This document shows, one piece after another, positions 9,231 through 31,195 of a DNA stretch of 31,512 nt (position 1 is the first letter of the stretch; each line of letters begins with the position of its first letter). The notes under the pieces are model-generated. The model saw only the letters and a program-made list of their open reading frames with translations. It did not search any database and had not been told where the DNA came from. Source of the stretch: an uncultured virus (IMG/VR IMGVR_UViG_3300028734_000015) (taxonomy: Duplodnaviria > Heunggongvirae > Uroviricota > Caudoviricetes); the IMG/VR virus record IMGVR_UViG_3300028734_000015; one strand, 5' to 3'. The position numbers and the translations under genes are program-made.

Positions 9231-10427
9231 TTACTTATAAATGTAGAAAATATCTTCTTTTTTTGTCCCTTGCATGTCATTTTTTTTCGAAAATAATGCG
9301 AATTTAACTTCAATGTTTTTTGATTCTGCTTCAGCAAAAATAGTTATTCTCTGGTCTGTATCGTATATGGATCCGGTACCATCTGAGATTACTAATAAAT
9401 ATTGCTTTGTTTTTAGTTTTGGTAGCAATCTGATCTTTTCCAACGTGCAACGACCCATATTGTCGTCACCGCCTTCGGTAATTGCGAATACCTTTTCAGC
9501 TAAATCTGTTTTGTTTCTTATTCGTTGTGGAGCGAATTCTCCTTTTGAATACAGATGCGTATTCCAAAAGCTATTTTCTACGCTTATCCCCATTTTTACG
9601 CAATCATCATATGTTTTTTCCACTAAGGCATTTCGCCAATTGTGGTAACCACCCATACTTCCTGATCTATCAATAATGGTATGCATAAATCTTTCACTTT
9701 CAACTGTCTGTTTCAAATACAATTCTTTGCCTACTATTTTTTTCATAAACAAAGCTTTTGGTTTAATGAATTCCACAACAGATACCTTCTGTAAGTCAGA
9801 AATTTTCGACATTTGTCTATGTTTCTTCTTTTTAGAATTTGTAGTACCTTTTAATTTCTTTAACCAGGCCTCAAGTTCTTTATATCCATCCATATTTTTC
9901 AATGGATTTTTATCTTCTTGATCTTCATGTTTGTTTGAATTCTCGTCTGCACAAGTACTCTCACTTATTTTTTCTTTCTCTTTCTCAATCTCTTTTTCTG
10001 ACGGTTTATATTCCATTATGTCTTTATACTGATTGTATATTGCATTAATGGTTTTCTTTAAGATTGATCCCTCCTCATATTTCCCCGATTCAGCCATAAT
10101 GTCTGATTGCAGTGCTATTTTCTTGAGGATATCCTTGTCTTTTTCATTTTCTTCGTCTTCGAATGCTGATTGAGTTTCGTATCCGTTCAGTTTATTATAT
10201 ACGCTTGGGAGCATTACTGATTCAAATTCAGCGTTTATAGCTTTTGCTTCGTAATACTCCTTTGCACTCACTGGTCCACGCGTCTCTTCGTCAATGGCTT
10301 TTTTATATGTTCTTTCTTCTTCTGAAGCTAGTATCTTTTTAACTGATGCTAGCTTATACAGATCTTCATAATCCATATTATATTTTACATCTTGATAGAA
10401 CGCATGCGCGTTGTTTCCGGCTATCAT
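9231..10427 (-). CDS. von Willebrand factor A (vWA) domain protein, ViaA/CoxE-like partner of the MoxR ATPase
   Basis: MIDAS motif IIDRSGSMG (DxSxS) and LLVISDG; 4-nt overlap with the upstream AAA gene. Confidence 0.8.
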   Translation of the reverse strand: MIAGNNAHAFYQDVKYNMDYEDLYKLASVKKILASEEERTYKKAIDEETRGPVSAKEYYEAKAINAEFESVMLPSVYNKLNGYETQSAFEDEENEKDKDILKKIALQSDIMAESGKYEEGSILKKTINAIYNQYKDIMEYKPSEKEIEKEKEKISESTCADENSNKHEDQEDKNPLKNMDGYKELEAWLKKLKGTTNSKKKKHRQMSKISDLQKVSVVEFIKPKALFMKKIVGKELYLKQTVESERFMHTIIDRSGSMGGYHNWRNALVEKTYDDCVKMGISVENSFWNTHLYSKGEFAPQRIRNKTDLAEKVFAITEGGDDNMGRCTLEKIRLLPKLKTKQYLLVISDGTGSIYDTDQRITIFAEAESKNIEVKFALFSKKNDMQGTKKEDIFYIYK

Positions 10428-11644
10428 GACAACTTCTTTTCTAGCATGATTAATAATTCCTCGGATTCTTTTGAAGCATTGCTTGCGAAAGAATCTTTTG
10501 ATTTAGATGTTACCAATTTGATAATCTCTAAATTTCTTTGAGTGTCAATAAATGAATCGTAATCATTAATTTGTTCGTCTCGTATTGACTTTTTCGTAGC
10601 TACGATTTCGTTAAATAATGATCTGTATACATTTATTCCCGTCTTTGTTTTTAGGTAATTGATAACTGGAGTCATCAAATTGTTTGTAATCTTTTCTGAA
10701 TAAGTCTTCGTCTTGATTACTTCCAGGTTTTTGATGTATTTTGACATCTCAAGAATCTTTCTTGGTGAAAGATCTTTCATTTCTGCAATTGTATCAACCA
10801 TTGCAGCTAATTTATCTTCTCCAAAGTCCGGGTAGCGATTCAAAATCAAACTTGCTGAATTCAGTTTGTCAATTTTGTATTGGAATGGATAAGATACTGC
10901 AAATCTTTGAGTTAATGCCTCTGTTGAGTCATCTTCAATTACTTCTTCATACGTCTTGTTTGTCAATCCGATAATTATTTTTGTCTTAATCGGGAAACGC
11001 TGATTGCCATTTCTGATCTCTTTAGATGTCAAAGTATCCTTTAGTGCGGCCAACACTTGCGGATTTGCATCAAAGATTTCTTCAAAGATCACGATTTCTT
11101 TATTTGCGAACGAATTTTCGCAATTGTATTCGATTGAGCCGGTATCGGTCATCTTTTTAATATTTATGCCACCGAATAAATCTTCTACTGTTGTAGCTTC
11201 TGAAAGTGATTTAATAAATACACGATCTTTTAATTCTGCACAAGAAAATAATTCGTCACAAACTTCTGATTTACCAAATCCGCCTTTACCGTATAATATG
11301 AGATTCATATTATTTGCCAATGCATTTTTGATAACCTGAGAAGGTCCTGACATGTTAATAAATTTCTTGCTGATAATTTCGTAAATCTTATCAGAGTTTT
11401 TATATTCCTCTAATAAAATATCTCCAAACTCAGCAATTATGCTTTTCTTCACTTTACGGAATTTTCGTCCGTCAATTTCTTCGTCAATCCAGGCTCCTTC
11501 TGATATATATGCGCTGTCGTTCTGAATAACGAAATCAAATGTTTCTTTATCGATTACGATAAATTTACTCGTCTTGATTCCGAAATGTTTTTCAGTCTCC
11601 ATTGGACTAATCAGATAATTTTCACTGTTTGTTTTTATATTCAT
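10424..11644 (-). CDS. MoxR/RavA-like AAA+ ATPase
   Basis: Walker A GKGGFGKS, EDLFGG, Walker B IVIFEEIF, sensor LTN, and EALTQRF arginine finger. Confidence 0.85.
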   Translation of the reverse strand: MNIKTNSENYLISPMETEKHFGIKTSKFIVIDKETFDFVIQNDSAYISEGAWIDEEIDGRKFRKVKKSIIAEFGDILLEEYKNSDKIYEIISKKFINMSGPSQVIKNALANNMNLILYGKGGFGKSEVCDELFSCAELKDRVFIKSLSEATTVEDLFGGINIKKMTDTGSIEYNCENSFANKEIVIFEEIFDANPQVLAALKDTLTSKEIRNGNQRFPIKTKIIIGLTNKTYEEVIEDDSTEALTQRFAVSYPFQYKIDKLNSASLILNRYPDFGEDKLAAMVDTIAEMKDLSPRKILEMSKYIKNLEVIKTKTYSEKITNNLMTPVINYLKTKTGINVYRSLFNEIVATKKSIRDEQINDYDSFIDTQRNLEIIKLVTSKSKDSFASNASKESEELLIMLEKKLS

Positions 11645-11735
11645 TTTGATATGTTTTGTTTTTGATTAACAGGGTAACTCCTTCTGCTAATGACGTTAAT
11701 AATAGTGATAGCTATTTGAACTTATGTTCAATTTG

Positions 11736-11859
11736 TTGCCTAGGTGGGAATCGAACCCATGTCACAACCTAATAATGAATCGTTGACTGACTTCACTGTA
11801 GTGAGAATATGTTTCCCTCTTATTATTAAGTTTGTTCTGCCTGCTGAACTTCCTAGGCA
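11736..11859 (-). ncRNA. tRNA-like RNA with an 8/4 acceptor/T helix and an enlarged anticodon arm
   Basis: TGCCTAGG/CCTAGGCA acceptor; D-arm GTTC-AGCAGGCA-GAAC; T-arm TGGG-TTCGATT-CCCA; 11-bp stem plus 45-nt insert in place of the anticodon loop. Confidence 0.7.
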
Positions 11860-11863
11860 TCCT

Positions 11864-12841
11864 TTAATTAACCATTGAGTCAAAGATCTGTAATGCTTTT
11901 GCATATCCCAGTCCTTTAACTAAATCGCTAACGTCTTTTGTTTTATATTTTTTGTTTATAAAGATTGCATTTATATTATATGTTTTGGATATTTTCCTTG
12001 CATATTCCACACCGGCTTTGTCTCTGTCATAAAAAATAAGTATTCTTTTGAACCTCTTTTTTAGGTTATTCATTACGATTTCTGGGATTGTAATGCTCTC
12101 ACTCGAAGGAGCTACTGCGTCATATCCCATTTCACTTAATACCATAACATCCTTTAACGATTTAGTTATTATGAGCAATTCTCCATTTTCTGGTAGCTGC
12201 TCAAACCCCTGTATGTCCAGGGCGTTTAAATTCCCTCTCCATTTAATCGTTTTAGGCCCAAGAGGATTATATATTTTAAATTTATTAAACACTTTGTAAC
12301 AATACAAAGGGCTTTCTGTCTTGTATACTCCTTTTACTATCCCATTTATCACAAACTTAGAAATTGCACTAACTTTGTATATCCTAAGAGTTTCTTTAGA
12401 TATTCCAAAGCTATTCCAAAATTTAATGTCAGTAAGATTTAGTGGCTTTCTGACTACGTTTATAATTGTGTCCTTAATTAATCTTCGTTTGTTTTCTGAT
12501 GATAACATTACTTTTAAGTTGCCTATATTCATGTCATCTGAAATTGTCTTCAAAGTCTCTTCGTACGTTTGCAGCTTTTTAAGTTGTTTAACAAATTTAA
12601 ATACGTTTCCACAATCATCGCTTGCTAGGTCTTTGTACAATAGATCTCCCGTTTTTCTACTCACAAAAACTCCAAATGAGGGATTCTTGTCTTCTCTTAG
12701 TGGACTATTGTAAATGTAGCCTATTTTAAAATCACCAATATATTTTGAAAAAATATCATATTCTGTTACTTTTTCTAGTATACTTTCCATGGTTAATTTT
12801 GGTTTTGCGACTCTATCTAGGACAGTATTTGTACTATACAT
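11864..12841 (-). CDS. DnaG-like DNA primase (TOPRIM)
   Basis: N-terminal SPLREDKNPSF (ZBD-like); TOPRIM motifs LIITKSLKDVM and FYDRDKAG. Confidence 0.85.
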   Translation of the reverse strand: MYSTNTVLDRVAKPKLTMESILEKVTEYDIFSKYIGDFKIGYIYNSPLREDKNPSFGVFVSRKTGDLLYKDLASDDCGNVFKFVKQLKKLQTYEETLKTISDDMNIGNLKVMLSSENKRRLIKDTIINVVRKPLNLTDIKFWNSFGISKETLRIYKVSAISKFVINGIVKGVYKTESPLYCYKVFNKFKIYNPLGPKTIKWRGNLNALDIQGFEQLPENGELLIITKSLKDVMVLSEMGYDAVAPSSESITIPEIVMNNLKKRFKRILIFYDRDKAGVEYARKISKTYNINAIFINKKYKTKDVSDLVKGLGYAKALQIFDSMVN

Positions 12842-17139: not shown

Positions 17140-17156
17140 GATATTCTTAGTTAATG

Positions 17157-17358
17157 TGGTGACAGATAATTTGGAGTTACAAACTTGTAGGCGCTTCGTG
17201 GGCGCCTCGTTGTCTGATTTTACGCTTGACTGTCCAGCTAATTATAATAATTTGATTACGAGTCTCTGTATTATAATTGTATGCTGTAACGCAACACCAG
17301 TCTTTAGACCCTTATGAAGCTAACGAACTCTATTTGCTCTTTTTTTAAATTATCTGTC
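17157..17358 (-). ncRNA. Candidate ~200-nt structured RNA closed by a 12-bp stem ending in ACCA
   Basis: GACAGATAATTT / AAATTATCTGTC-ACCA; internal helices AATTATAATA/TATTATAATT, AGGCGC/GCGCCT, GAGTT/AACTC and GACTG/CAGTC. Confidence 0.55.
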
Positions 17359-17363
17359 TTTTG

Positions 17364-17425
17364 TTAAAGCTTGGGAATTGAACCCAATTATACTTATTCT
17401 AGTATATATTACCATTACTTCTTTG
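17364..17425 (-). pseudogene. Degenerate tRNA-like element
   Basis: Perfect T-arm TTGGG-TTCAATT-CCCAA, hairpin TATACT-AGAATA-AGTATA and D-loop-like GTAATGGTA; acceptor stem is poor. Confidence 0.45.
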
Positions 17426-17432
17426 TTTGTTT

Positions 17433-17894
17433 TTATGCTGCATCGTTAATTTCGCTCATTTCATTGAATTTCAATAAATATGCTTCTAATGCAATCTTTT
17501 CTGCATTTAGTTTTTCAATTTCTGTATCAATAAATTTGCGTGTGAATGCAATTTTTTCTGTTTCCTCTTTCTTCGTTGGGATCATTGCCAGTTTTACTGC
17601 TCTTTCTTTGATCTGTTGCAATAAAAAGATTGAGTAAAACGCATTATTTTTAGGAATATCCTTCAAATCTGTTATTCCGAAATTGGTCGCTTGAAGTTTT
17701 ATTTTTGTTTCGATTAATTCGATTTCATTTTTTTTGATTTGTTCGTAGATTGCTTCTAAGTTATATAGAGGCATTAGTCCTATTGGGAACACGTTATTGT
17801 TTATAATAAGGTTCCATGAGGCTTTGATTTCTGCGATTAATATTTCTCGTTTTGCGATTAATATTTCAGGTGTAATTTTAGTAGGTGCTGTCAT
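17433..17894 (-). CDS. Hypothetical helical protein
   Basis: 153-aa ORF with an AT-rich leader. Confidence 0.75.
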   Translation of the reverse strand: MTAPTKITPEILIAKREILIAEIKASWNLIINNNVFPIGLMPLYNLEAIYEQIKKNEIELIETKIKLQATNFGITDLKDIPKNNAFYSIFLLQQIKERAVKLAMIPTKKEETEKIAFTRKFIDTEIEKLNAEKIALEAYLLKFNEMSEINDAA

Positions 17895-18755: not shown

Positions 18756-19223
18756 TTAGTCTTCTTCTTCTTCGTACAACGGCAAGGCGGCAATGTTTGC
18801 CTTGTTTGCGTCGGTTAAGCACTTGATCTGATTGTTCAGATCGTTACGAATTTCTGTTAAGCGGGCAATTTCGCTTTCGTTTGCTGCGTTAGCAATATTG
18901 ATTGCTTCTTCATAAGATGGGAAATATGCGTCTGGTTCTGTTTCGAAATCGAATTTACCTCCGTCTTCCACAAATTTGTAGTTACTTGGAAAAGCGACTT
19001 TGTTGTCACCTCCGTTTACTATGAGAATCTCTGCTCCACCTGGAGCATGTGTTAATTTCACTTCGTTAACAACGAGTGCTTTTGGCATGCAAATGATAGC
19101 GAGTTTTTCGATACGCAATTTTTTGTCTTTTGCTTTGTGATTTATATCTACTGGTTTTGACACTAAATTGAAGATTGTTGCGCCTGCGAAAAGCCGCTGA
19201 GCTACTTTTTTATTATTTTTCAT
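18756..19223 (-). CDS. Hypothetical protein with a coiled-coil/acidic C-terminus
   Basis: 155-aa ORF on the operon strand. Confidence 0.75.
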   Translation of the reverse strand: MKNNKKVAQRLFAGATIFNLVSKPVDINHKAKDKKLRIEKLAIICMPKALVVNEVKLTHAPGGAEILIVNGGDNKVAFPSNYKFVEDGGKFDFETEPDAYFPSYEEAINIANAANESEIARLTEIRNDLNNQIKCLTDANKANIAALPLYEEEED

Positions 19224-19775
19224 TTTTTCTTTTATGTGTTTTAATATTGATTATTTACTGTGTTTTGAAAACGCTAATTGGGTCTTACTGAGAGTTTAAT
19301 CTGTTCCGACCATGTAAAATAAATTTAATAGTGAAGAGTTACACTCTCTTCCTGGACCCATTACTCTCCAAAGAGTTGGGCATGTAATCCTTATGTCGAT
19401 ATGAGATATCTGTACCTCAGAGTGCTACAACATCGAATTTACGATTCTAATTGCGCTCGTTTTGTTTTAAATAAAAGCGGTTGGTGAATAATGGGCTACT
19501 CCATCTATTCCAGTTATATTTATCATGTGTCACTGTTCTACTTTCTGCGATTGGCCGCATAGGTTTAGTAAATATAATAGCCGTCAATATTTGATAATTT
19601 ATAATTAAAAAGCCATTCTTGTATCGAAGAAAGGCGAAGAACATATTTTGAAAGATTTCGTAACGGATCTTTTATTAGCTCCTATAACAAATGAGGTTAT
19701 GGTATTCTAAAATCCTGTATTGTATCAAGTCTTGAATCTTGAGTTACTAATGATATGGTTTGCTAATTTGTTTCT

Positions 19776-19988
19776 TTAAATCCTATTTAGTGACTGACCT
19801 TCTATATCTCCATAAGCAAGGGGTAAGTAATCATATTCTTGAGTACCTACTTTGTGTACAGTTTGGACCTGCTTGTTCTGGGGCCTTCTCCTATTAAGGA
19901 CTGATTCTTCTATGAGAACCAGGTTTCTAAACTTCGGATTTGGTATTGAAATGTTTATCTTATCGTCTTGTATCGAATGATTCTTCAT
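19776..19988 (-). CDS. Small hypothetical protein
   Basis: 70-aa ORF with the leader TTAAAAACCAGAAAATAAAGAA-ATG typical of this genome. Confidence 0.55.
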   Translation of the reverse strand: MKNHSIQDDKINISIPNPKFRNLVLIEESVLNRRRPQNKQVQTVHKVGTQEYDYLPLAYGDIEGQSLNRI

Positions 19989-20009
19989 TTCTTTATTTTC
20001 TGGTTTTTA

Positions 20010-21209
20010 AGTGTTTGACCTTCCACTTGATTTATCCAGTATCCTCTGGTGCATGGATTGAATAGCCTCCGGCTTCCTTCTGCTCATCCTAAGACATAGG
20101 AGAACGTACTAATATGCTGTAAAAGCTTACTACTCTTTTACTGATGATATAATTTTTCCCAAATATCGTGGGTTTGAAGTTTTCCTGTCTGGCAGGTCGT
20201 ACTCCTAACTAGCCATGTTTAAGTTGCATATTATTACTGTAATTCGCCAGTTTCGGCTTTCGCCTTTCCGTTCATTATCCACACTTACAACGTGCGTTTC
20301 CTATCTACTAGTATAGGCACGGACAACTTTCGATTAACCTTGAAAGCATAACTAGGTTGTTGGTTTTTATTATTATTTCATTCATTTTAAAACCAGTAAT
20401 ATAATGATATGTTCGCTATCTAGGTCCATGGGCCTTTGGTTTTTTAATTGCCAAAAAGACAACTTCAACTATTGGATTTCCACCCCGCGCATTACTAGCC
20501 GGTTTATGTATTCTATTAATAGTTATTATTTTACGTTCTCCTTTAATCTTCCATCTTGCATGGGTTAATCACTGCTATTGCGGTGTAGGGAGCTAATGTT
20601 ATAGATCTATTGTGCTTCTGTATAACCTTGCATAGTTATGCTTTTGCGATCTATATTCGACATTTATACTGTTCCGTTCAGCGCGTGTCTATCTCGGAAT
20701 CTCTTTTTATCCATGAGCATGGCTTGCTTTTTATAGAAGCATAACTACGGCTTTTAGATTGTTCTATTCTTGCCTGGGCTGGCACCTTCGGGAGGCCTGG
20801 ACACCCACTTCTCGATACACTGAGAAGCTTAAACCTGTGACTATTTTAATTAGGTATAGATACCATTACCTTGTTTTACGCGTTTCTCCATTTAAGGATT
20901 ATGGTGACAAGGACGTCTACCATCAGTTTTCCATCGTTTTGGACATTTTATAATGCGGCAGTCCCCAGTCGCTTAATTACGTATCTCTAATATATTTCCC
21001 ACTCAAAGAGAGTTTACTTGTATATTATGGTAATCTTCATTTATTTGGCCCGCTTACAATTATGTTTGAATTGCTGCTGCTCCATCTATAAGTTTTCCAC
21101 GCTTATGATTCGATCACTCCCTTTGATTCTTTAAACTCGTTGGTTCGATGAGTGAACGAGTGCCTGATTGAAACCGCTTTGCCTGCGGTGCCGGTTGACC
21201 CGGTCGATT
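20010..21209 (-). ncRNA. Candidate large structured non-coding RNA
   Basis: About 1.2 kb with no credible ORF, visibly less AT-rich; GNRA hairpin GGC-GAAA-GCC and long-range 10-12-bp complementarities. Confidence 0.5.
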
Positions 21210-21554
21210 TTATTTAGAAACAATTACGCCTGTTTCTAGGTTTAACATTGAACTTTCATCTTCTGCCAATGAAATATCAATTAAGCCTGCTTTAATTTCC
21301 TCTGTAGATAATGTACACACTTTTCTGTGTATCCACATACTATATCCTGGAAGATTACTTACGACACTGTTTATTGCATTTTTTTTAACTAATATTTGAC
21401 CGTTTAGTCGGGCCAGGGATTCTTGTAATGGTTTTTCGAGGAATATATCCCCTCGGACATACGTGTCCAATATACCAATTACTGCCTGTCTTGCTTTAAG
21501 CAAATTGTTTAATCGCACGTTTAGCATACGAATTAGTTGCATTTGTTGTGTCAT
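21210..21554 (-). CDS. Hypothetical protein
   Basis: 114-aa ORF, tightly packed with its neighbours. Confidence 0.7.
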   Translation of the reverse strand: MTQQMQLIRMLNVRLNNLLKARQAVIGILDTYVRGDIFLEKPLQESLARLNGQILVKKNAINSVVSNLPGYSMWIHRKVCTLSTEEIKAGLIDISLAEDESSMLNLETGVIVSK

Positions 21555-24632: not shown

Positions 24633-24656
24633 TTTAAGTATTATTATTAATATTTG

Positions 24657-24730
24657 TGATCCAAGCAGGATTCAAACCTGCGACCCACACCTTAGAAGGG
24701 TGTTGCTCTATTCAACTGAGCTATTAGACC
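24657..24730 (-). tRNA. tRNA-Arg(UCU)
   Basis: GGTCTAA/TTGGATC acceptor; GCTC/GAGC D-stem; ACACC-CT TCT AA-GGTGT anticodon arm; GCAGG-TTTGAAT-CCTGC T-arm; CCA not encoded. Confidence 0.9.
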
Positions 24731-27103: not shown

Positions 27104-27854
27104 CGAAAATATTTTTAATCTATGTAAACATTTCTGCTCCACCTTACGTTATATGATTATATATAATATATTATGGAAAAACAATGTTTATTTTGTAACA
27201 AAACTTTTAATGCAGATCCCAGAGAGCTTAGGAGATGTCATGCCATTTATTGTAGCATTTCATGTTCTATTAAGCATCGAAATCAATTAATACCCCTACG
27301 CAAATGTAAATGTATTGTTTGCTTAAGCGAGTTTGAAAGTAAATCAACTAAAGCTAAATATTGTTGCAAAAAATGCAAAAGTATTCATTATAGGAGATTA
27401 ATTTCAACCGAGGTGAATGGTACTAGAAGAATTCAATCTATATTGTTGACTTTCCCTTGTGCAAATTGCGGCTGGGATTTATCTTCAAGAGACGTTCATC
27501 ATATAGTTCCATCTTGTTTTGGTGGCAAAAATGAATTAACTAATTTAATTACACTTTGTCCTAATTGCCATAGAATGGCTCATAGAAACCTCCTTTTGGA
27601 GGACAAGTTAAATGAACTTGTTTATTTTCGGACTATATCATCATCCGGCATTTCTGCTTAGGATGTTGGGCGCTTATCTGGTTATTAAGGAAATTCTATT
27701 CCTCCAGTAGTCTCTGCACTTTCAAGCGGTATACCGCAAGCTTAGCTCAGGATTGGCATGTAAAAAATGTTCATTTCTGAGCTTTTTTATTTAGCGTTCC
27801 CTGAATTCACCCAATTTTCGATATGTATTACTACATAAAGGACCCCTATAGTTG
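27104..27854 (-). mobile_element. Group I intron (IC3-like core) in the tmRNA T-loop
   Basis: 5' exon ends in U with P1 GACU^C/GGGUC; P AATTCAGGGAA (27807-27797); Q AATCCTGAGC (27754-27745); R GCAGAGACTA (27717-27708); S GATATAGTCC (27639-27630); P3 TTGGGTG/CGCCCAA; terminal omega-G at 27104. Confidence 0.9.
27173..27661 (+). CDS. HNH endonuclease (probable homing endonuclease) with N-terminal Cys-rich repeats, antisense within the intron
   Basis: CANCG...DVHHIVP...GGKNELTNLITLCPNCHRMAH; two CxxC...YCxxxC units; the only credible + strand gene in the - strand block. Confidence 0.9.
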   Translation: MEKQCLFCNKTFNADPRELRRCHAIYCSISCSIKHRNQLIPLRKCKCIVCLSEFESKSTKAKYCCKKCKSIHYRRLISTEVNGTRRIQSILLTFPCANCGWDLSSRDVHHIVPSCFGGKNELTNLITLCPNCHRMAHRNLLLEDKLNELVYFRTISSSGISA

Positions 27855-27907
27855 AGTCGAACCCTCGTCCAAACTACTAGTCTAATGACTTAGCAGCTGA
27901 TATGAGT

Positions 27908-28645: not shown

Positions 28646-28687
28646 CTTTTAATTGATTTAAATGATTTATAATACAGTTAATAATTG

Positions 28688-28761
28688 TAGCCAATATCGG
28701 AATTGAACCGATGACCTCTAGATTTTACAAACCTAGTGCTCTCCCACTGAGCTAATTGGCT
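28688..28761 (-). tRNA. Atypical tRNA: anticodon GUA (Tyr) on a 6-bp stem, or Thr(UGU) with a 9-nt loop
   Basis: AGCCAAT/ATTGGCT acceptor; GCTC-AGTGGGA-GAGC; CTAGG-TTTGTAAAA-TCTAG; short variable loop AGGTC; ATCGG-TTCAATT-CCGAT. Confidence 0.8.
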
Positions 28762-30776: not shown

Positions 30777-30809
30777 TTAAATTGATTTTAAATTGTTAAT
30801 ACTAATTTG

Positions 30810-30881
30810 TGGCAGTCTAGGGATTCGAACCCGTTCTTTCCGCTGTCTATCATAGTGCTCTCATACTATGTAGATACTGCC
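30810..30881 (-). ncRNA. tRNA-like RNA lacking an anticodon arm (9/3-type acceptor/T helix)
   Basis: GGCAGT(AT)CTA / TAGACTGCC-A; T-arm GGG-TTCGAAT-CCC; single internal hairpin CATAGT-ATGAGAGC-ACTATG. Confidence 0.6.
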
Positions 30882-30889
30882 TTGTGCCA

Positions 30890-31195
30890 TTATCTTTTTA
30901 AGATTTCATTCCAATATTGGTATCCATCTTTTGTTTCCGTCCAATCAAACGCTCTTGCTATGAAAGTTCTCCAATATTTTAGTTTATTTAAATATATTGC
31001 TGAATCTATCGTCCTCCAAGTGGTAATATCCACACATTCTGTTGCGTGAAGGCAAACTGGTCCAGGAGCGCTTTCAGTACCTACTCTTAATAGATATGCT
31101 CTTAGTTCTTTAATGAATTTTGATTTAATTCTCAATCTTTTGAGTTTTAATTCAAATTCAGGTTTAAATTGGATGTTAATTTGTTTTTTTGACAT
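30890..31195 (-). CDS. Hypothetical phage protein
   Basis: 101-aa ORF ending AFDWTETKDGYQYWNEI. Confidence 0.75.
   Translation of the reverse strand: MSKKQINIQFKPEFELKLKRLRIKSKFIKELRAYLLRVGTESAPGPVCLHATECVDITTWRTIDSAIYLNKLKYWRTFIARAFDWTETKDGYQYWNEILKR

What the first reader, a model, noticed from the sequence alone, without database searches (positions are those of the whole stretch)
11736..11859. tRNA mimic with an 8/4 fold and a 45-nt domain replacing the anticodon loop
Seen: well-formed acceptor (8 bp), D-arm and T-arm (4 bp, TTCGATT). The anticodon arm is instead an 11-bp stem (AACTTAATAAT/ATTATTAGGTT) capped by 45 nt with small hairpins. There is no U33-anticodon context even if an intron is assumed, no G3-U70 and no ribozyme core. 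It starts 4 nt after the primase stop. Established: 8/4 acceptor/T geometry occurs in allo-tRNAs. Inference: a non-decoding tRNA mimic, such as a decoy for anticodon nucleases, synthetases or EF-Tu, or an RNase P/Z processing signal.
Basis: partly seen in the sequence, partly recalled or inferred. Interest (0 to 1): 0.7.

Follow-up and report, generated by a model that had tools for sequence, protein, structure and literature searches.

The report
Anticodon-less tRNA look-alike after phage primase
Right behind the primase gene of an uncultured crAss-like phage sits a tRNA-shaped RNA fold that cannot read codons, one version of a fold that related phages keep at the same spot, most likely a cut-here mark for the host's tRNA-trimming enzymes.

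Summary
On the minus strand, 11859..11736, 4 nt after the primase stop, there is a cloverleaf with intact acceptor, D and T arms. An 11-bp stem capped by 45 nt stands where the anticodon loop should be. ARAGORN does not call it, and Rfam tRNA scores 27.5 bits, just under threshold. It is not a lone oddity. Twelve distinct relatives carry a tRNA-shaped element at the same position. Their acceptor and T stems covary strongly, but the anticodon arm is a GNRA hairpin, a long arm, or absent. "8/4" is one substitution away from the family's 7/5; the 12-layer stack is kept. The 45-nt cap has no significant structure and no variants to test. The family shares its A73-C-A trailer with the true tRNAs of these phages. 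The last 66 nt of the primase ORF form a long covarying hairpin found only in phages that have the mimic. Best reading (about 0.5): a t-element or mascRNA-like processing module cut by RNase P and RNase Z, with the hairpin protecting the new mRNA end. An anticodon-nuclease decoy is disfavoured. No RNA data were available, so cleavage is inferred.

The parts
11864..12841 (-). DNA primase ORF (325 aa), stop TAA at 11866-11864
   Evidence: ORF list. PHROG phrog_12622 DNA primase, E 5.5e-45. Neighbours are replication genes of a crAss-like phage.
11867..11932 (-). 66-nt imperfect hairpin made of the last codons of the primase ORF, ending at the stop codon
   Evidence: -22.8 kcal/mol, z about -4.6 to -5.1. 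It ranks first of 29 minus-strand ORF ends in the window. It is present in 12 of 12 distinct relatives that have the mimic (mean z -3.9), against 34 without it (mean z -0.38), Mann-Whitney p 6e-7. Covariation: 85% of cells paired against 28-48% for slid controls.
11860..11862 (-). conserved 5' leader GGA
   Evidence: GGA in 9 of the 11 hand-aligned members. Also present before the window's true tRNA-Tyr.
11852..11859 (-). acceptor stem, 5' strand (TGCCTAGG)
   Evidence: Pairs with 11744-11737. The family's acceptor pairs 2-7 are canonical in 66 of 66 cells, with 2-3 pair types each.
11834..11849 (-). D-arm GTTC-AGCAGGCA-GAAC, with A14, G15, G18, G19 and A21
   Evidence: Sequence. It forms in the unconstrained MFE. 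The family's D stems are paired in 40 of 42 cells.
11766..11832 (-). 67-nt arm at the anticodon position: 11-bp stem (11832-11822 with 11776-11766) plus a 45-nt cap (11821-11777)
   Evidence: The stem forms when the arm is folded alone. Neither the arm nor the cap beats shuffles. No similar sequence was found in the phage records, loci or window. Only identical copies are known.
11760..11765 (-). variable region GTGACA (G46 and C48 present)
   Evidence: Sequence.
11745..11759 (-). T-arm TGGG-TTCGATT-CCCA
   Evidence: T-loop motif hit at 11747-11757. The Rfam alignment shows one missing T-stem position. The family's T stems are paired in 52 of 52 cells.
11737..11744 (-). acceptor stem, 3' strand (CCTAGGCA)
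11734..11736 (-). discriminator A73 followed by CA
   Evidence: A73-C74 in 11 of 11 family members. The same A-C-A follows 9 of 10 ARAGORN-called tRNAs of these phages.
11716..11731 (-). 6-bp hairpin TTGAAC-ATAA-GTTCAA, 5 nt downstream of the mimic
   Evidence: Identical in the window, L057 and L058. L053 has the same stem with a 9-nt loop. There is no covariation, so its RNA nature is inferred from the change in loop length.
10424..11644 (-). downstream ORF (406 aa, ATPase-like)

Best explanation
The element is a non-decoding, tRNA-shaped RNA module transcribed with the phage's replication genes. It serves as a processing signal for the host's tRNA maturation enzymes.

Proposed steps:
1. RNase P recognises the 12-layer acceptor/T stack and the D/T elbow. 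It cuts between A11860 and U11859.
2. This leaves the primase mRNA ending 7 nt past a 66-nt hairpin, which shields it from 3' exonucleases.
3. RNase Z, or an equivalent 3' activity, cuts at or just after A73-C74. This releases the downstream ATPase mRNA, which begins a few nucleotides before a 6-bp hairpin.
4. The excised 124-nt RNA is a by-product. It may receive CCA.

The anticodon arm is irrelevant to this job, so the family tolerates a GNRA hairpin, no arm, or the window's 67-nt arm.

Shown: the fold, its conservation by covariation, the shared flanks with true tRNAs, and the linked hairpin. Inferred: every cleavage step, and the protective role of the hairpins.
For: 1. Position and family. 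I judged 27 primase loci with at least 49% identity by eye and by model R1. Of these, 22 (12 distinct sequence types) carry a tRNA-shaped element on the coding strand, 4-190 nt after the primase stop.

2. Selection on shape, not decoding. On a MAFFT alignment of 9 short members, the 12 acceptor and T pairs are 90.7% paired, against 24-39% when partners are slid. Eleven of 12 pairs change on both sides. None of 500 shuffles reaches this. My hand alignment of 11 members, including the window, gives acceptor pairs 2-7 at 66 of 66, T at 52 of 52 and D at 40 of 42. The anticodon position holds GAAA, GUAA or UAAA hairpins, a 5-nt loop, nothing (L058), or long arms (window, L062).

3. The acceptor plus T layers total 12 in the window (8+4) and in 9 of the other 10 members (7+5, counting 1:72). 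That is the length RNase P, RNase Z and the CCA-adding enzyme measure (established knowledge). L079 is the exception.

4. Same flanks as real tRNAs. A73-C74 occurs in 11 of 11 members. The A-C-A trailer follows 9 of 10 ARAGORN tRNAs in these phages. The window's tRNA-Tyr also has the GGA leader and scores 46 bits on the family model.

5. Terminal primase hairpin. It is present in 12 of 12 distinct phages with the mimic (mean z -3.9), against 34 without (mean z -0.38), p 6e-7. It covaries and is the strongest of 29 ORF ends in the window.

6. The body can be swapped wholesale. The window, L057 and L058 have near-identical flanks but unrelated stems and loops, while primase third-codon positions are still 66-69% identical. 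This fits 'any tRNA shape will do'.

7. Precedent. Plant mitochondrial t-elements were found with the same GGTTCRANYCC scan. They direct RNase P and RNase Z cuts that make mRNA ends (PMC1920247, passages read).
Against: - No RNA evidence of any kind exists. No cleavage, CCA addition or transcript end has been seen.
- The link between hairpin and mimic could be co-inheritance within one clade, not function.
- In the L053 type, about 190 nt separate the hairpin from the mimic. In L079 and L090 the gap is about 55-70 nt. So the hairpin would not sit at the new 3' end in those phages.
- ORFs that precede the other tRNA-type elements in the window have no such hairpin.
- In the L053, L057 and L061 type, the D-loop, variable region and GAAA hairpin are nearly sequence-identical across phages whose primases are only about 59% identical to the window's. 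That hints at a sequence-specific role beyond mere shape.
- 1:72 is mismatched in 7 of 11 members, and the -1 base is A. Neither is the usual optimum for RNase P.
- The two long-arm members (window, L062) are not matched full-length by model R1, at 14.5 and 14.1 bits for partial matches. Only 3 of 13 relative loci gave an Rfam tRNA hit at E<=1.
Confidence: 0.5

Rival explanations
1. The excised RNA is itself the product. It would be a stable, CCA-tailed tRNA body acting in trans as a sponge or decoy for a host factor that recognises the top half of tRNA. Candidates are defence toxins that modify or cut acceptor ends, RNase P or Z, the CCA-adding enzyme, EF-Tu, or a synthetase that ignores the anticodon. 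The variable arm would serve as an optional payload.
For: The top half and elbow are conserved by covariation. In the L053, L057 and L061 type, loops are nearly sequence-identical over a long evolutionary distance. The body changes faster than synonymous sites between close relatives, as expected in an arms race. 1:72 is mismatched in 7 of 11 members; in initiator tRNA such a mismatch lowers EF-Tu binding (established knowledge), which would keep a mimic off the ribosome. Phage tRNAs that counter tRNA-targeting defences are known (abstracts listed: PMC11464382, PMC11555353, PMC10264068).
Against: The defence tRNases named in the paper I read act on the anticodon arm (PMC13056530, passages). 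That arm is not conserved here. No partner gene is evident near the element. There is one copy per genome, and stoichiometric sponging of abundant tRNA-binding factors would need very high expression. This reading does not explain the covarying hairpin at the primase end.
Confidence: 0.2
2. It is a cis-acting structure that is not cut out. The tRNA-like fold, with the upstream hairpin, would act as a 3'-terminal stabiliser, a transcription stop or pause, or a translational control element at the primase/ATPase boundary.
For: It lies at a gene boundary between two hairpins. At the position of a third, weaker tRNA-like stretch in the window (about 30881..30808), relative G005 has a terminator-like hairpin followed by the same downstream sequence. 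So tRNA-like folds and terminators can occupy equivalent slots.
Against: There is no U-tract after the element or after the hairpin. A stabiliser or terminator has no need for tRNA-specific tertiary nucleotides (G18, G19, T54, T55, C56, A58, G15:C48) or for the same A-C-A trailer as real tRNAs.
Confidence: 0.1
3. It is a decaying tRNA gene with no present function, the remnant of a captured tRNA whose anticodon loop was destroyed by an insertion.
For: The window's body has nearly all canonical class-I tRNA tertiary positions, and its D-arm is identical to that of several true tRNAs in unrelated viral contigs. The insertion sits exactly in the loop of a normal 5-bp anticodon stem. The cap shows no structure beyond chance. 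Only identical copies are known, so selection on this particular copy cannot be measured.
Against: The slot has held an anticodon-less tRNA shape throughout the clade, with compensatory changes in every stem. All 12 stack pairs and 4 D pairs of the window copy are intact, and the flanks are conserved. No donor tRNA was found in 185,579 species genomes by two exact-pattern scans.
Confidence: 0.08
4. It is linked to replication. The RNA or single-stranded DNA fold next to the primase gene would act as an origin, a primer or a primase recognition site.
For: tRNA genes or tRNA-like elements lie next to the primase gene, upstream or downstream, in many crAss-like phages.
Against: Cumulative GC skew has no extremum near 11.8 kb; the switch is at about 6.6-7 kb. 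The upstream neighbours in other clades include ordinary decoding tRNAs, so the association looks syntenic. The T-loop and D-loop signature, and the trailer shared with real tRNAs, point to an RNA handled as a tRNA.
Confidence: 0.05
5. It is a decoding tRNA, for example a suppressor, whose anticodon loop is restored by removing an unconventional intron.
For: The insertion is in the anticodon arm. Some crAss-like phages recode stop codons without a detectable suppressor tRNA (10.64898/2026.08.21.746148, passages).
Against: No splice choice gives U33 (hand check). There is no ribozyme or intron hit in an Rfam search of 11600-12000 at E<=10, and no bulge-helix-bulge in the perfect 11-bp stem. Relatives have 0-6-nt loops and no insertion. 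I saw no sign of TAG recoding in the part of the window I checked.
Confidence: 0.02

Closest known systems
Plant mitochondrial t-elements (Forner et al. 2007, PMC1920247; passages read)
   Same: Both are tRNA-like folds with a conserved T-arm (GGTTCRANYCC) and a non-canonical cloverleaf, embedded in mRNA precursors directly after or before coding regions. t-elements have mapped RNase P and RNase Z cuts that make mRNA 3' and 5' ends, and the excised pieces carry non-templated C or CCA. The same motif scan picks out the elements here.
   Different: Those are organellar and have experimentally mapped ends. This one is in a phage, has no RNA data, shows much stronger covariation support, and has a linked hairpin inside the upstream ORF.
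mascRNA / MALAT1 and menRNA (Rfam RF01684; PMC8457004 and PMC11693755 seen as search listings only, details recalled)
   Same: Both are tRNA-like modules at the end of a long transcript with a reduced, non-decoding anticodon arm. In MALAT1, RNase P makes the upstream RNA's 3' end, which an adjacent structure (the triple helix) protects. Here a 66-nt hairpin sits in the equivalent place.
   Different: That system is eukaryotic and nuclear. The protective element there is a triple helix, not a coding-region hairpin. There is no sequence relation, and Rfam gave no mascRNA hit here.
Canonical tRNA (Rfam RF00005), including phage tRNAs
   Same: It has the acceptor, D and T arms, the tertiary nucleotides, and the same leader and trailer context as this phage's tRNA-Tyr and tRNA-Arg.
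   Different: It has no 7-nt anticodon loop, no U33, a 57-nt replacement of the loop, and an 8/4 or mismatched 7/5 stack. It scores below the gathering score, and ARAGORN does not call it.
allo-tRNAs with 8/4 geometry (recalled; no paper read)
   Same: The acceptor/T split is possibly 8/4, with 12 layers in total.
   Different: allo-tRNAs decode and have anticodon loops. Here the 8/4 split is a one-substitution variant within a 7/5 family and can also be read as 7/5 with an A.C mismatch.
tmRNA tRNA-like domain
   Same: Both have an acceptor and T-arm without an anticodon, with a long helix leaving from the anticodon side.
   Different: This element has no G3.U70, no tag reading frame and no pseudoknots, and it has a full D stem. 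ARAGORN finds no tmRNA.
Engineered 'tRNA scaffold' RNAs, with a payload inserted in the anticodon stem (recalled)
   Same: The window and L062 carry arms of 67 and 52 nt grafted exactly onto the anticodon stem of an otherwise intact tRNA body.
   Different: That is a laboratory design. Here the payload shows no significant structure or conservation.

Membership tests
Canonical tRNA (RF00005) | Covariance-model score at or above the gathering score (29 bits) | tested here: not met
   27.5 bits, E 9.7e-4 in a 401-nt search. No hit at gathering level in the whole-window scan.
Canonical tRNA (RF00005) | 7-nt anticodon loop with U33 and a purine at position 37 | tested here: not met
   The loop is replaced by 57 nt. 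Every possible 7-nt register next to the AACTT/AGGTT stem has A33 (sequence). ARAGORN makes no call.
Canonical tRNA (RF00005) | Acceptor, D and T arms with the tertiary nucleotides A14, R15:Y48, G18, G19, T54, T55, C56 and A58 | tested here: met
   All are present in the segmentation. Position 8 is A, not U.
Anticodon-less tRNA mimic after the primase gene of crAss-like phages (family defined here and in earlier scan notes) | Lies on the coding strand directly downstream of the primase stop | tested here: met
   4 nt after the stop. Relatives lie 4-9 nt away in most cases and up to about 190 nt.
Anticodon-less tRNA mimic after the primase gene of crAss-like phages (family defined here and in earlier scan notes) | GGA leader and A73-C74(-A) trailer | tested here: met
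   The window has GGA...A-CA. The trailer is present in 11 of 11 members and the GGA leader in 9 of 11.
Anticodon-less tRNA mimic after the primase gene of crAss-like phages (family defined here and in earlier scan notes) | 12-layer acceptor/T stack plus a D-arm, and no decoding loop | tested here: met
   The window's 8+4 gives 12 layers.
Anticodon-less tRNA mimic after the primase gene of crAss-like phages (family defined here and in earlier scan notes) | Full-length match to the family covariance model R1 | tested here: not met
   Only a partial match at 14.5 bits, E 0.26. R1 models the middle as a linear stretch and cannot absorb the 67-nt arm. L062 fails in the same way.
t-element / mascRNA-type processing signal | tRNA-like fold with a conserved T-arm motif, inside a longer transcript next to a coding region | tested here: met
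t-element / mascRNA-type processing signal | Transcript ends coincide with the element's borders, cleavage by RNase P and RNase Z, and CCA on the excised piece | not testable with these tools
allo-tRNA (8/4) | 8-bp acceptor and 4-bp T stem | tested here: inconclusive
   8/4 gives 12 Watson-Crick or G.U pairs. 7/5 gives 11 plus an A.C mismatch and a 3-nt linker, and it is the register Rfam aligns.
allo-tRNA (8/4) | Functional anticodon loop | tested here: not met
   See above.
Intron-containing tRNA (group I or bulge-helix-bulge) | A ribozyme core or bulge-helix-bulge motif, and a restorable 7-nt loop | tested here: not met
   No intron family was found in 11600-12000 at E<=10. The stem is a perfect 11 bp without bulges. 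No register gives U33.
tmRNA | G3.U70, a tag reading frame and pseudoknots | tested here: not met
   Pair 3:70 is C-G. ARAGORN finds no tmRNA.

The most novel reading that the evidence does not exclude
The module is a phage counterpart of the MALAT1/mascRNA arrangement, with one addition. The excised, CCA-tailed tRNA body would be a natural 'tRNA scaffold' that the phage uses to mature and stabilise a small RNA payload grafted onto the anticodon stem. The payload is the 57-nt insert here and a different 52-nt arm in L062. The body itself would turn over quickly because it engages host factors that recognise the top half of tRNA. The processing signal would then have been co-opted, lineage by lineage, into a trans-acting RNA.
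Probability: 0.12. Interest if true: 0.8.

Novelty: new variant of a known kind. Interest (0 to 1): 0.6.

Why it matters
If correct, phages of the most abundant gut and environmental phage order use host tRNA-maturation enzymes to cut up their replication-gene transcripts. They would do so with a disarmed tRNA and a protective hairpin, the same logic as plant mitochondrial t-elements and mammalian MALAT1/mascRNA.

That would add a processing layer to crAss-like gene expression that gene callers and tRNA finders miss. ARAGORN called none of the family members.

It would also explain some 'tRNA pseudogenes' reported in such genomes. And it offers compact natural parts (hairpin, tRNA shape, hairpin) for controlling mRNA ends in Bacteroidota-type hosts.

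My searches found no published description of such elements in phages. They cover open-access papers and bioRxiv only.

Tried and rejected
- **Intron or suppressor tRNA.** No U33 register, no ribozyme hit, and relatives have no insert. TAG=Q opens no longer frames in 16.9-21.3 kb.
- **Origin of the 67-nt arm.** blastn of the element against phage records found only chance-level T-arm hits. blastn-short against the window and all loci found nothing beyond identical copies, D-arm hits and T-arm hits.
- **Donor tRNA in host genomes.** Two exact-pattern scans of genome contigs each returned 0 matches.
- **D-arm pattern scan of viral contigs.** It returned 49 loci. Apart from the window's own contigs, they are unrelated; some are ordinary tRNAs with the same D-arm.
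- **Pattern scan for the primase end plus leader.** This mostly gave chance hits and I did not use it.
- **Metagenome scan with the primase profile.** It added only duplicates of known types (L144, L145).
- **A TATTATTAAC motif downstream of tRNA-type elements as a promoter.** It is not enriched in the window, with 8 matches against 9.8 expected. I dropped it as evidence.
- **Origin of replication at the element.** GC skew gives no support.
- **Sigma-70 promoter and terminator scan around the element.** Nothing informative.
- **The mir-148 and mir-239 Rfam hits at 11871-11927.** As family assignments they are spurious. They flagged the primase-end hairpin that I then analysed.
- **Earlier scan notes.** None for this genome or this sequence. 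A word search found two notes on the same family in other genomes.
Full report
**What the window is.** The 31.5-kb window is the replication module of an uncultured crAss-like phage. Its best DNA matches are Crassvirales genomes at 67-72% identity. The neighbouring ORFs are primase, a Sak4-like annealing protein, a DnaB-like helicase, an exonuclease, a sigma factor and a phosphoesterase. From about 6.6 kb to the window's end, nearly all genes are on the minus strand. Two ordinary tRNAs and a group I intron lie on the same strand: tRNA-Arg(UCU) at 24730..24656, tRNA-Tyr(GUA) at 28761..28687, and the intron at 27611-27864.

**The observation.** The primase ORF ends with TAA at 11866-11864, followed by four bases, AGGA. 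The segments are:
- acceptor, 8 bp: 11859-11852 with 11744-11737
- linker AA
- D-arm GTTC-AGCAGGCA-GAAC
- A26
- 11-bp stem: 11832-11822 with 11776-11766, around 45 nt
- variable region GTGACA
- T-arm TGGG-TTCGATT-CCCA
- A73, then CA

ARAGORN does not call it. Rfam's tRNA model aligns it end to end at 27.5 bits, under the gathering score of 29. The E-value is 9.7e-4 in a 401-nt search. The alignment has a 63-nt insertion in the anticodon arm and one deleted T-stem position. The unconstrained MFE is -32.3 kcal/mol, z -2.75. It contains the acceptor and D arms but not the T-arm. Enforcing the cloverleaf costs 0.7 kcal/mol.

No 7-nt loop register next to the AACTT/AGGTT stem has U33, and pair 3:70 is C-G.

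Two points need qualifying. First, the 45-nt cap has no structure beyond chance: -3.3 kcal/mol, and 385 of 500 shuffles do as well or better. The 67-nt arm as a whole is no better than shuffles either, with 76 of 500 reaching it. The case for the 11-bp stem is therefore its exact placement on the anticodon-stem position, not its energy. Second, '8/4' is the reading with the most pairs, but a 7/5 reading with one A.C mismatch and a 3-nt linker is equally possible.

**Relatives.** I used the primase protein, and then a 10-sequence primase profile, to fetch related loci.
- *Close loci.* I examined 27 loci with primases at least 49% identical to the window's (L070-L096). Twenty-two carry a tRNA-shaped element on the coding strand after the primase stop, falling into 12 distinct sequence types. 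L081 is unclear, L095 and L096 are degenerate, and L091 and L094 have none.
- *Distant loci.* In the 47 more distant loci (L097-L143) the next gene abuts the primase, judged by eye. Model R1 was run on 23 of these 47. It hit only upstream of the primase. Some of those hits are ordinary tRNAs (Gln, Leu, Lys) and some are further anticodon-less shapes.
- *tRNA finders.* ARAGORN calls none of the after-primase elements. Rfam tRNA reaches E<=1 in 3 of 13 relative loci: L066 at 38.1 bits, L053 at 37.0 and L061 at 27.0.

**What is and is not conserved.** My segmentation shows the same plan in every member:
- leader GGA in 9 of 11
- acceptor
- D-arm with GG
- T-arm with GTTCRAnTC, or AGCGAKA in one subgroup
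- A73-C74 in 11 of 11

The anticodon position differs in every lineage:

| Member | Anticodon position |
|---|---|
| L053, L057, L061, L059, L083 | 4-6 bp stem with GAAA tetraloop |
| L090 | GUAA tetraloop |
| L066 | UAAA loop |
| L079 | 5-nt loop |
| L058 | nothing |
| L062 | 52-nt arm |
| window | 67-nt arm |

On an unbiased MAFFT alignment of the nine short members:
- the 12 acceptor and T pairs are 90.7% paired, against 24-39% with slid partners
- 11 of 12 pairs change on both sides
- none of 500 shuffles reaches the observed pairing or covariation score

My hand alignment of 11 members, including the window, was built with the structure in mind and so leans towards it. It gives acceptor pairs 2-7 at 66 of 66, T stems at 52 of 52 and D stems at 40 of 42. 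Pair 1:72 is a standard pair in only 4 of 11 (A.A or A.G in the rest).

The acceptor plus T layers total 12 in the window (8+4) and in nine of the other ten members (7+5); L079 is the exception. The family is therefore under selection for the tRNA top half and elbow, and under none for a decoding loop. That rules out a simple decayed tRNA for the family. It makes the window's element a member with an expanded arm.

**8/4 in context.** Relative L062 has the T-arm ATGGG-TTCGAAT-CCCAT. The window has ATGGG-TTCGATT-CCCAC, followed by an acceptor strand that lets G8 pair with that C. One substitution thus moves one layer from the T stem to the acceptor stem while keeping 12. This looks like drift under a length constraint, not an allo-tRNA relationship.

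**Turnover.** The window, L057 and L058 have primases 80-83% identical. Their flanks are near identical, including 25 invariant bases starting at A73. But the stems, D-loop, variable region and anticodon arm are unrelated. Third-codon positions at identical residues are still 66-69% identical, so the body has changed more than synonymous sites.

The L053, L057 and L061 type keeps nearly identical loops, even though L061's primase is only 59% identical to the window's. By parsimony that type is ancestral, and the window's and L058's bodies are replacements or heavy remodellings. No donor tRNA turned up in two exact-pattern scans of 185,579 species genomes.

**Link to real tRNA processing.** Nine of ten ARAGORN-called tRNAs in these phages are followed by the same A73-C-A as the family. 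The window's tRNA-Tyr also has the GGA leader and scores 46 bits on the family model. The mimic therefore sits in the same flank context as RNAs that must be matured by RNase P and a 3' activity.

**A linked hairpin.** The spurious mir-148 hits drew my attention to the end of the primase ORF. Its last 72 nt fold into one long imperfect hairpin, window 11932..11867, at -22.8 kcal/mol, ending at the stop codon.
- All 12 distinct phages with the mimic have such a hairpin: mean -18.2 kcal/mol, mean z -3.9.
- Thirty-four distinct primase ends without the mimic do not: mean -6.2 kcal/mol, mean z -0.38. Mann-Whitney p is 6e-7.
- On a gap-free alignment of ten, 85.2% of cells pair, against 28-48% with slid partners. 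Eleven of 25 pairs change on both sides. None of 500 shuffles reaches this.
- It is the strongest of the 29 minus-strand ORF ends in the window.

There are caveats. The phages with the mimic form one clade, so the association may be inherited together rather than functional. The sequences are coding. In the L053 type about 190 nt lie between the hairpin and the mimic, and in L079 and L090 about 55-70 nt. ORFs upstream of the window's other tRNA-type elements have no such hairpin.

Five bases after the mimic comes a 6-bp hairpin, 11731-11716. It is identical in the window, L057 and L058, and has a 9-nt instead of a 4-nt loop in L053. That loop change fits an RNA hairpin better than a protein operator.

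**Mechanism.** The most economical reading is a processing module.
1. RNase P cuts at the mimic's 5' end.
2. The primase mRNA then ends just past its hairpin.
3. A 3' activity cuts after A73 or C74.
4. The downstream mRNA starts just before its own hairpin.

Every cleavage is inferred. The logic has two precedents. Plant mitochondrial t-elements were found with the same T-arm motif scan, and their RNase P and Z-type ends and CCA-like tails were mapped (PMC1920247, passages read). The second is MALAT1/mascRNA (listings; details recalled). I put this reading at about 0.5.

The main rival, at about 0.2, is that the excised RNA acts in trans as a sponge or decoy for a factor that reads the tRNA top half. 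The fast turnover of the body, the sequence-conserved loops of the L053 type and the frequent 1:72 mismatch fit it. But the phage-defence tRNases named in the paper I read act on the anticodon arm (PMC13056530, passages), which is not conserved here.

The remaining rivals are less likely:
- an uncut cis element, 0.1
- a functionless relic, 0.08
- a replication element, 0.05 (no GC-skew support)
- an intron-bearing decoding tRNA, 0.02

**What is specific to this window.** The window's own contribution is the 57-nt replacement of the loop and the 8/4 register. The insert has no detectable structure, no similarity to anything held, and no sequence variants; three contigs are 100% identical. Nothing can be said about its function. 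It may be neutral cargo tolerated by a shape-only signal, or a payload on a natural tRNA scaffold.

**Prior knowledge.** Seven full-text searches found no description of anticodon-less tRNA-like elements in crAss-like or other phages. One preprint mentions two low-scoring 'tRNA-like' pseudogenes in a Crassvirales genome without analysis. Subscription journals are not covered.

Two earlier notes of this scan describe the same family in other genomes and reach the same favoured reading. They are AI notes, not independent evidence. I re-derived the position, the covariation and the lack of an anticodon here. The primase-end hairpin and the shared tRNA trailer do not appear in the summaries I saw.

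**Limits.**
- There are no RNA data, and the window's own assembly is not held.
- Covariation counts rest on 9-11 sequences from one clade.
- Shuffles in my scripts were mononucleotide shuffles.
- The census of distant loci was partly by eye.
- I did not build a primase tree.

Noticed in passing
window 17421..17362 (-): This is a second, smaller tRNA-like element, 11 nt after the stop of ORF 17433..17894. It has a 5-bp acceptor (GAAGT/GCTTT), a D-loop-like AATGGTAATA without a stem, a hairpin TATAC-TAGAATAA-GTATA, a T-arm TTGGG-TTCAATT-CCCAA, and then AACA. The R1 hit is weak (14.5 bits, E 0.25). It is conserved in G003, with a compensatory change in the hairpin, and in G004, with a different 7-bp hairpin and a covarying acceptor pair.
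   Followed up: partly
window about 17150-17360 (-): A noncoding stretch is about 95% identical to relative G003, while the adjacent coding DNA is about 78% identical. It contains a GGCGCC-CACGAA-GCGCC hairpin. Rfam finds no family. It is probably an unknown conserved RNA or regulatory region.
   Followed up: no
window about 30881..30808 (-): This is a possible third tRNA-like stretch after ORF 30890..31195. It has a 6-bp acceptor (GGCAGT/ACTGCC), a 10-bp arm, a T-loop motif with only 3 stem pairs, and then A-CA. At the equivalent spot relative G005 has a terminator-like hairpin followed by the same downstream sequence.
   Followed up: partly
L053-L056 (= L073-L076), about 190 nt between the primase stop and the mimic: This inserted stretch has several hairpin-like repeats and is absent from the window, L057 and L058. 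Its nature is unknown.
   Followed up: no
L013-L015, L018, L033, L038, L043 (unrelated viral contigs): These hold multi-copy 77-nt tRNA genes with encoded CCA. Their anticodon loop reads TTGCAAAA, TTACAAAA or TTGAAAAA, so ARAGORN reports four-base 'anticodons' gcaa, acaa and gaaa. Each is preceded by a terminator-like GC stem plus T-run, and there are three copies in each of two contigs.
   Followed up: no
L103:618-674, L148:236-306, L099:620-686, L108:208-261, L146:507-588 / L101:440-517: In more distant crAss-like phages, further tRNA-shaped elements that ARAGORN does not call lie just upstream of the primase gene. One lacks an anticodon arm (L103), one has a GCAA tetraloop (L148), and one has a 7-bp stem with a 10-nt loop (L146 and L101).
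   Followed up: partly
window 19223-21210: About 2 kb has no ORF of 90 aa or more under code 11, and TAG=Q opens none either.
   Followed up: no
window 27611-27864 (-) and 27173-27661 (+): A group I intron (Rfam 75.8 bits) lies next to an HNH endonuclease ORF on the opposite strand.
   Followed up: no
L059, L060, L062, L083, just after the mimic: A downstream GGGGCA/GGGCG repeat of the acceptor 5' strand could pair with the acceptor 3' strand, giving a fold that competes with the cloverleaf.
   Followed up: no
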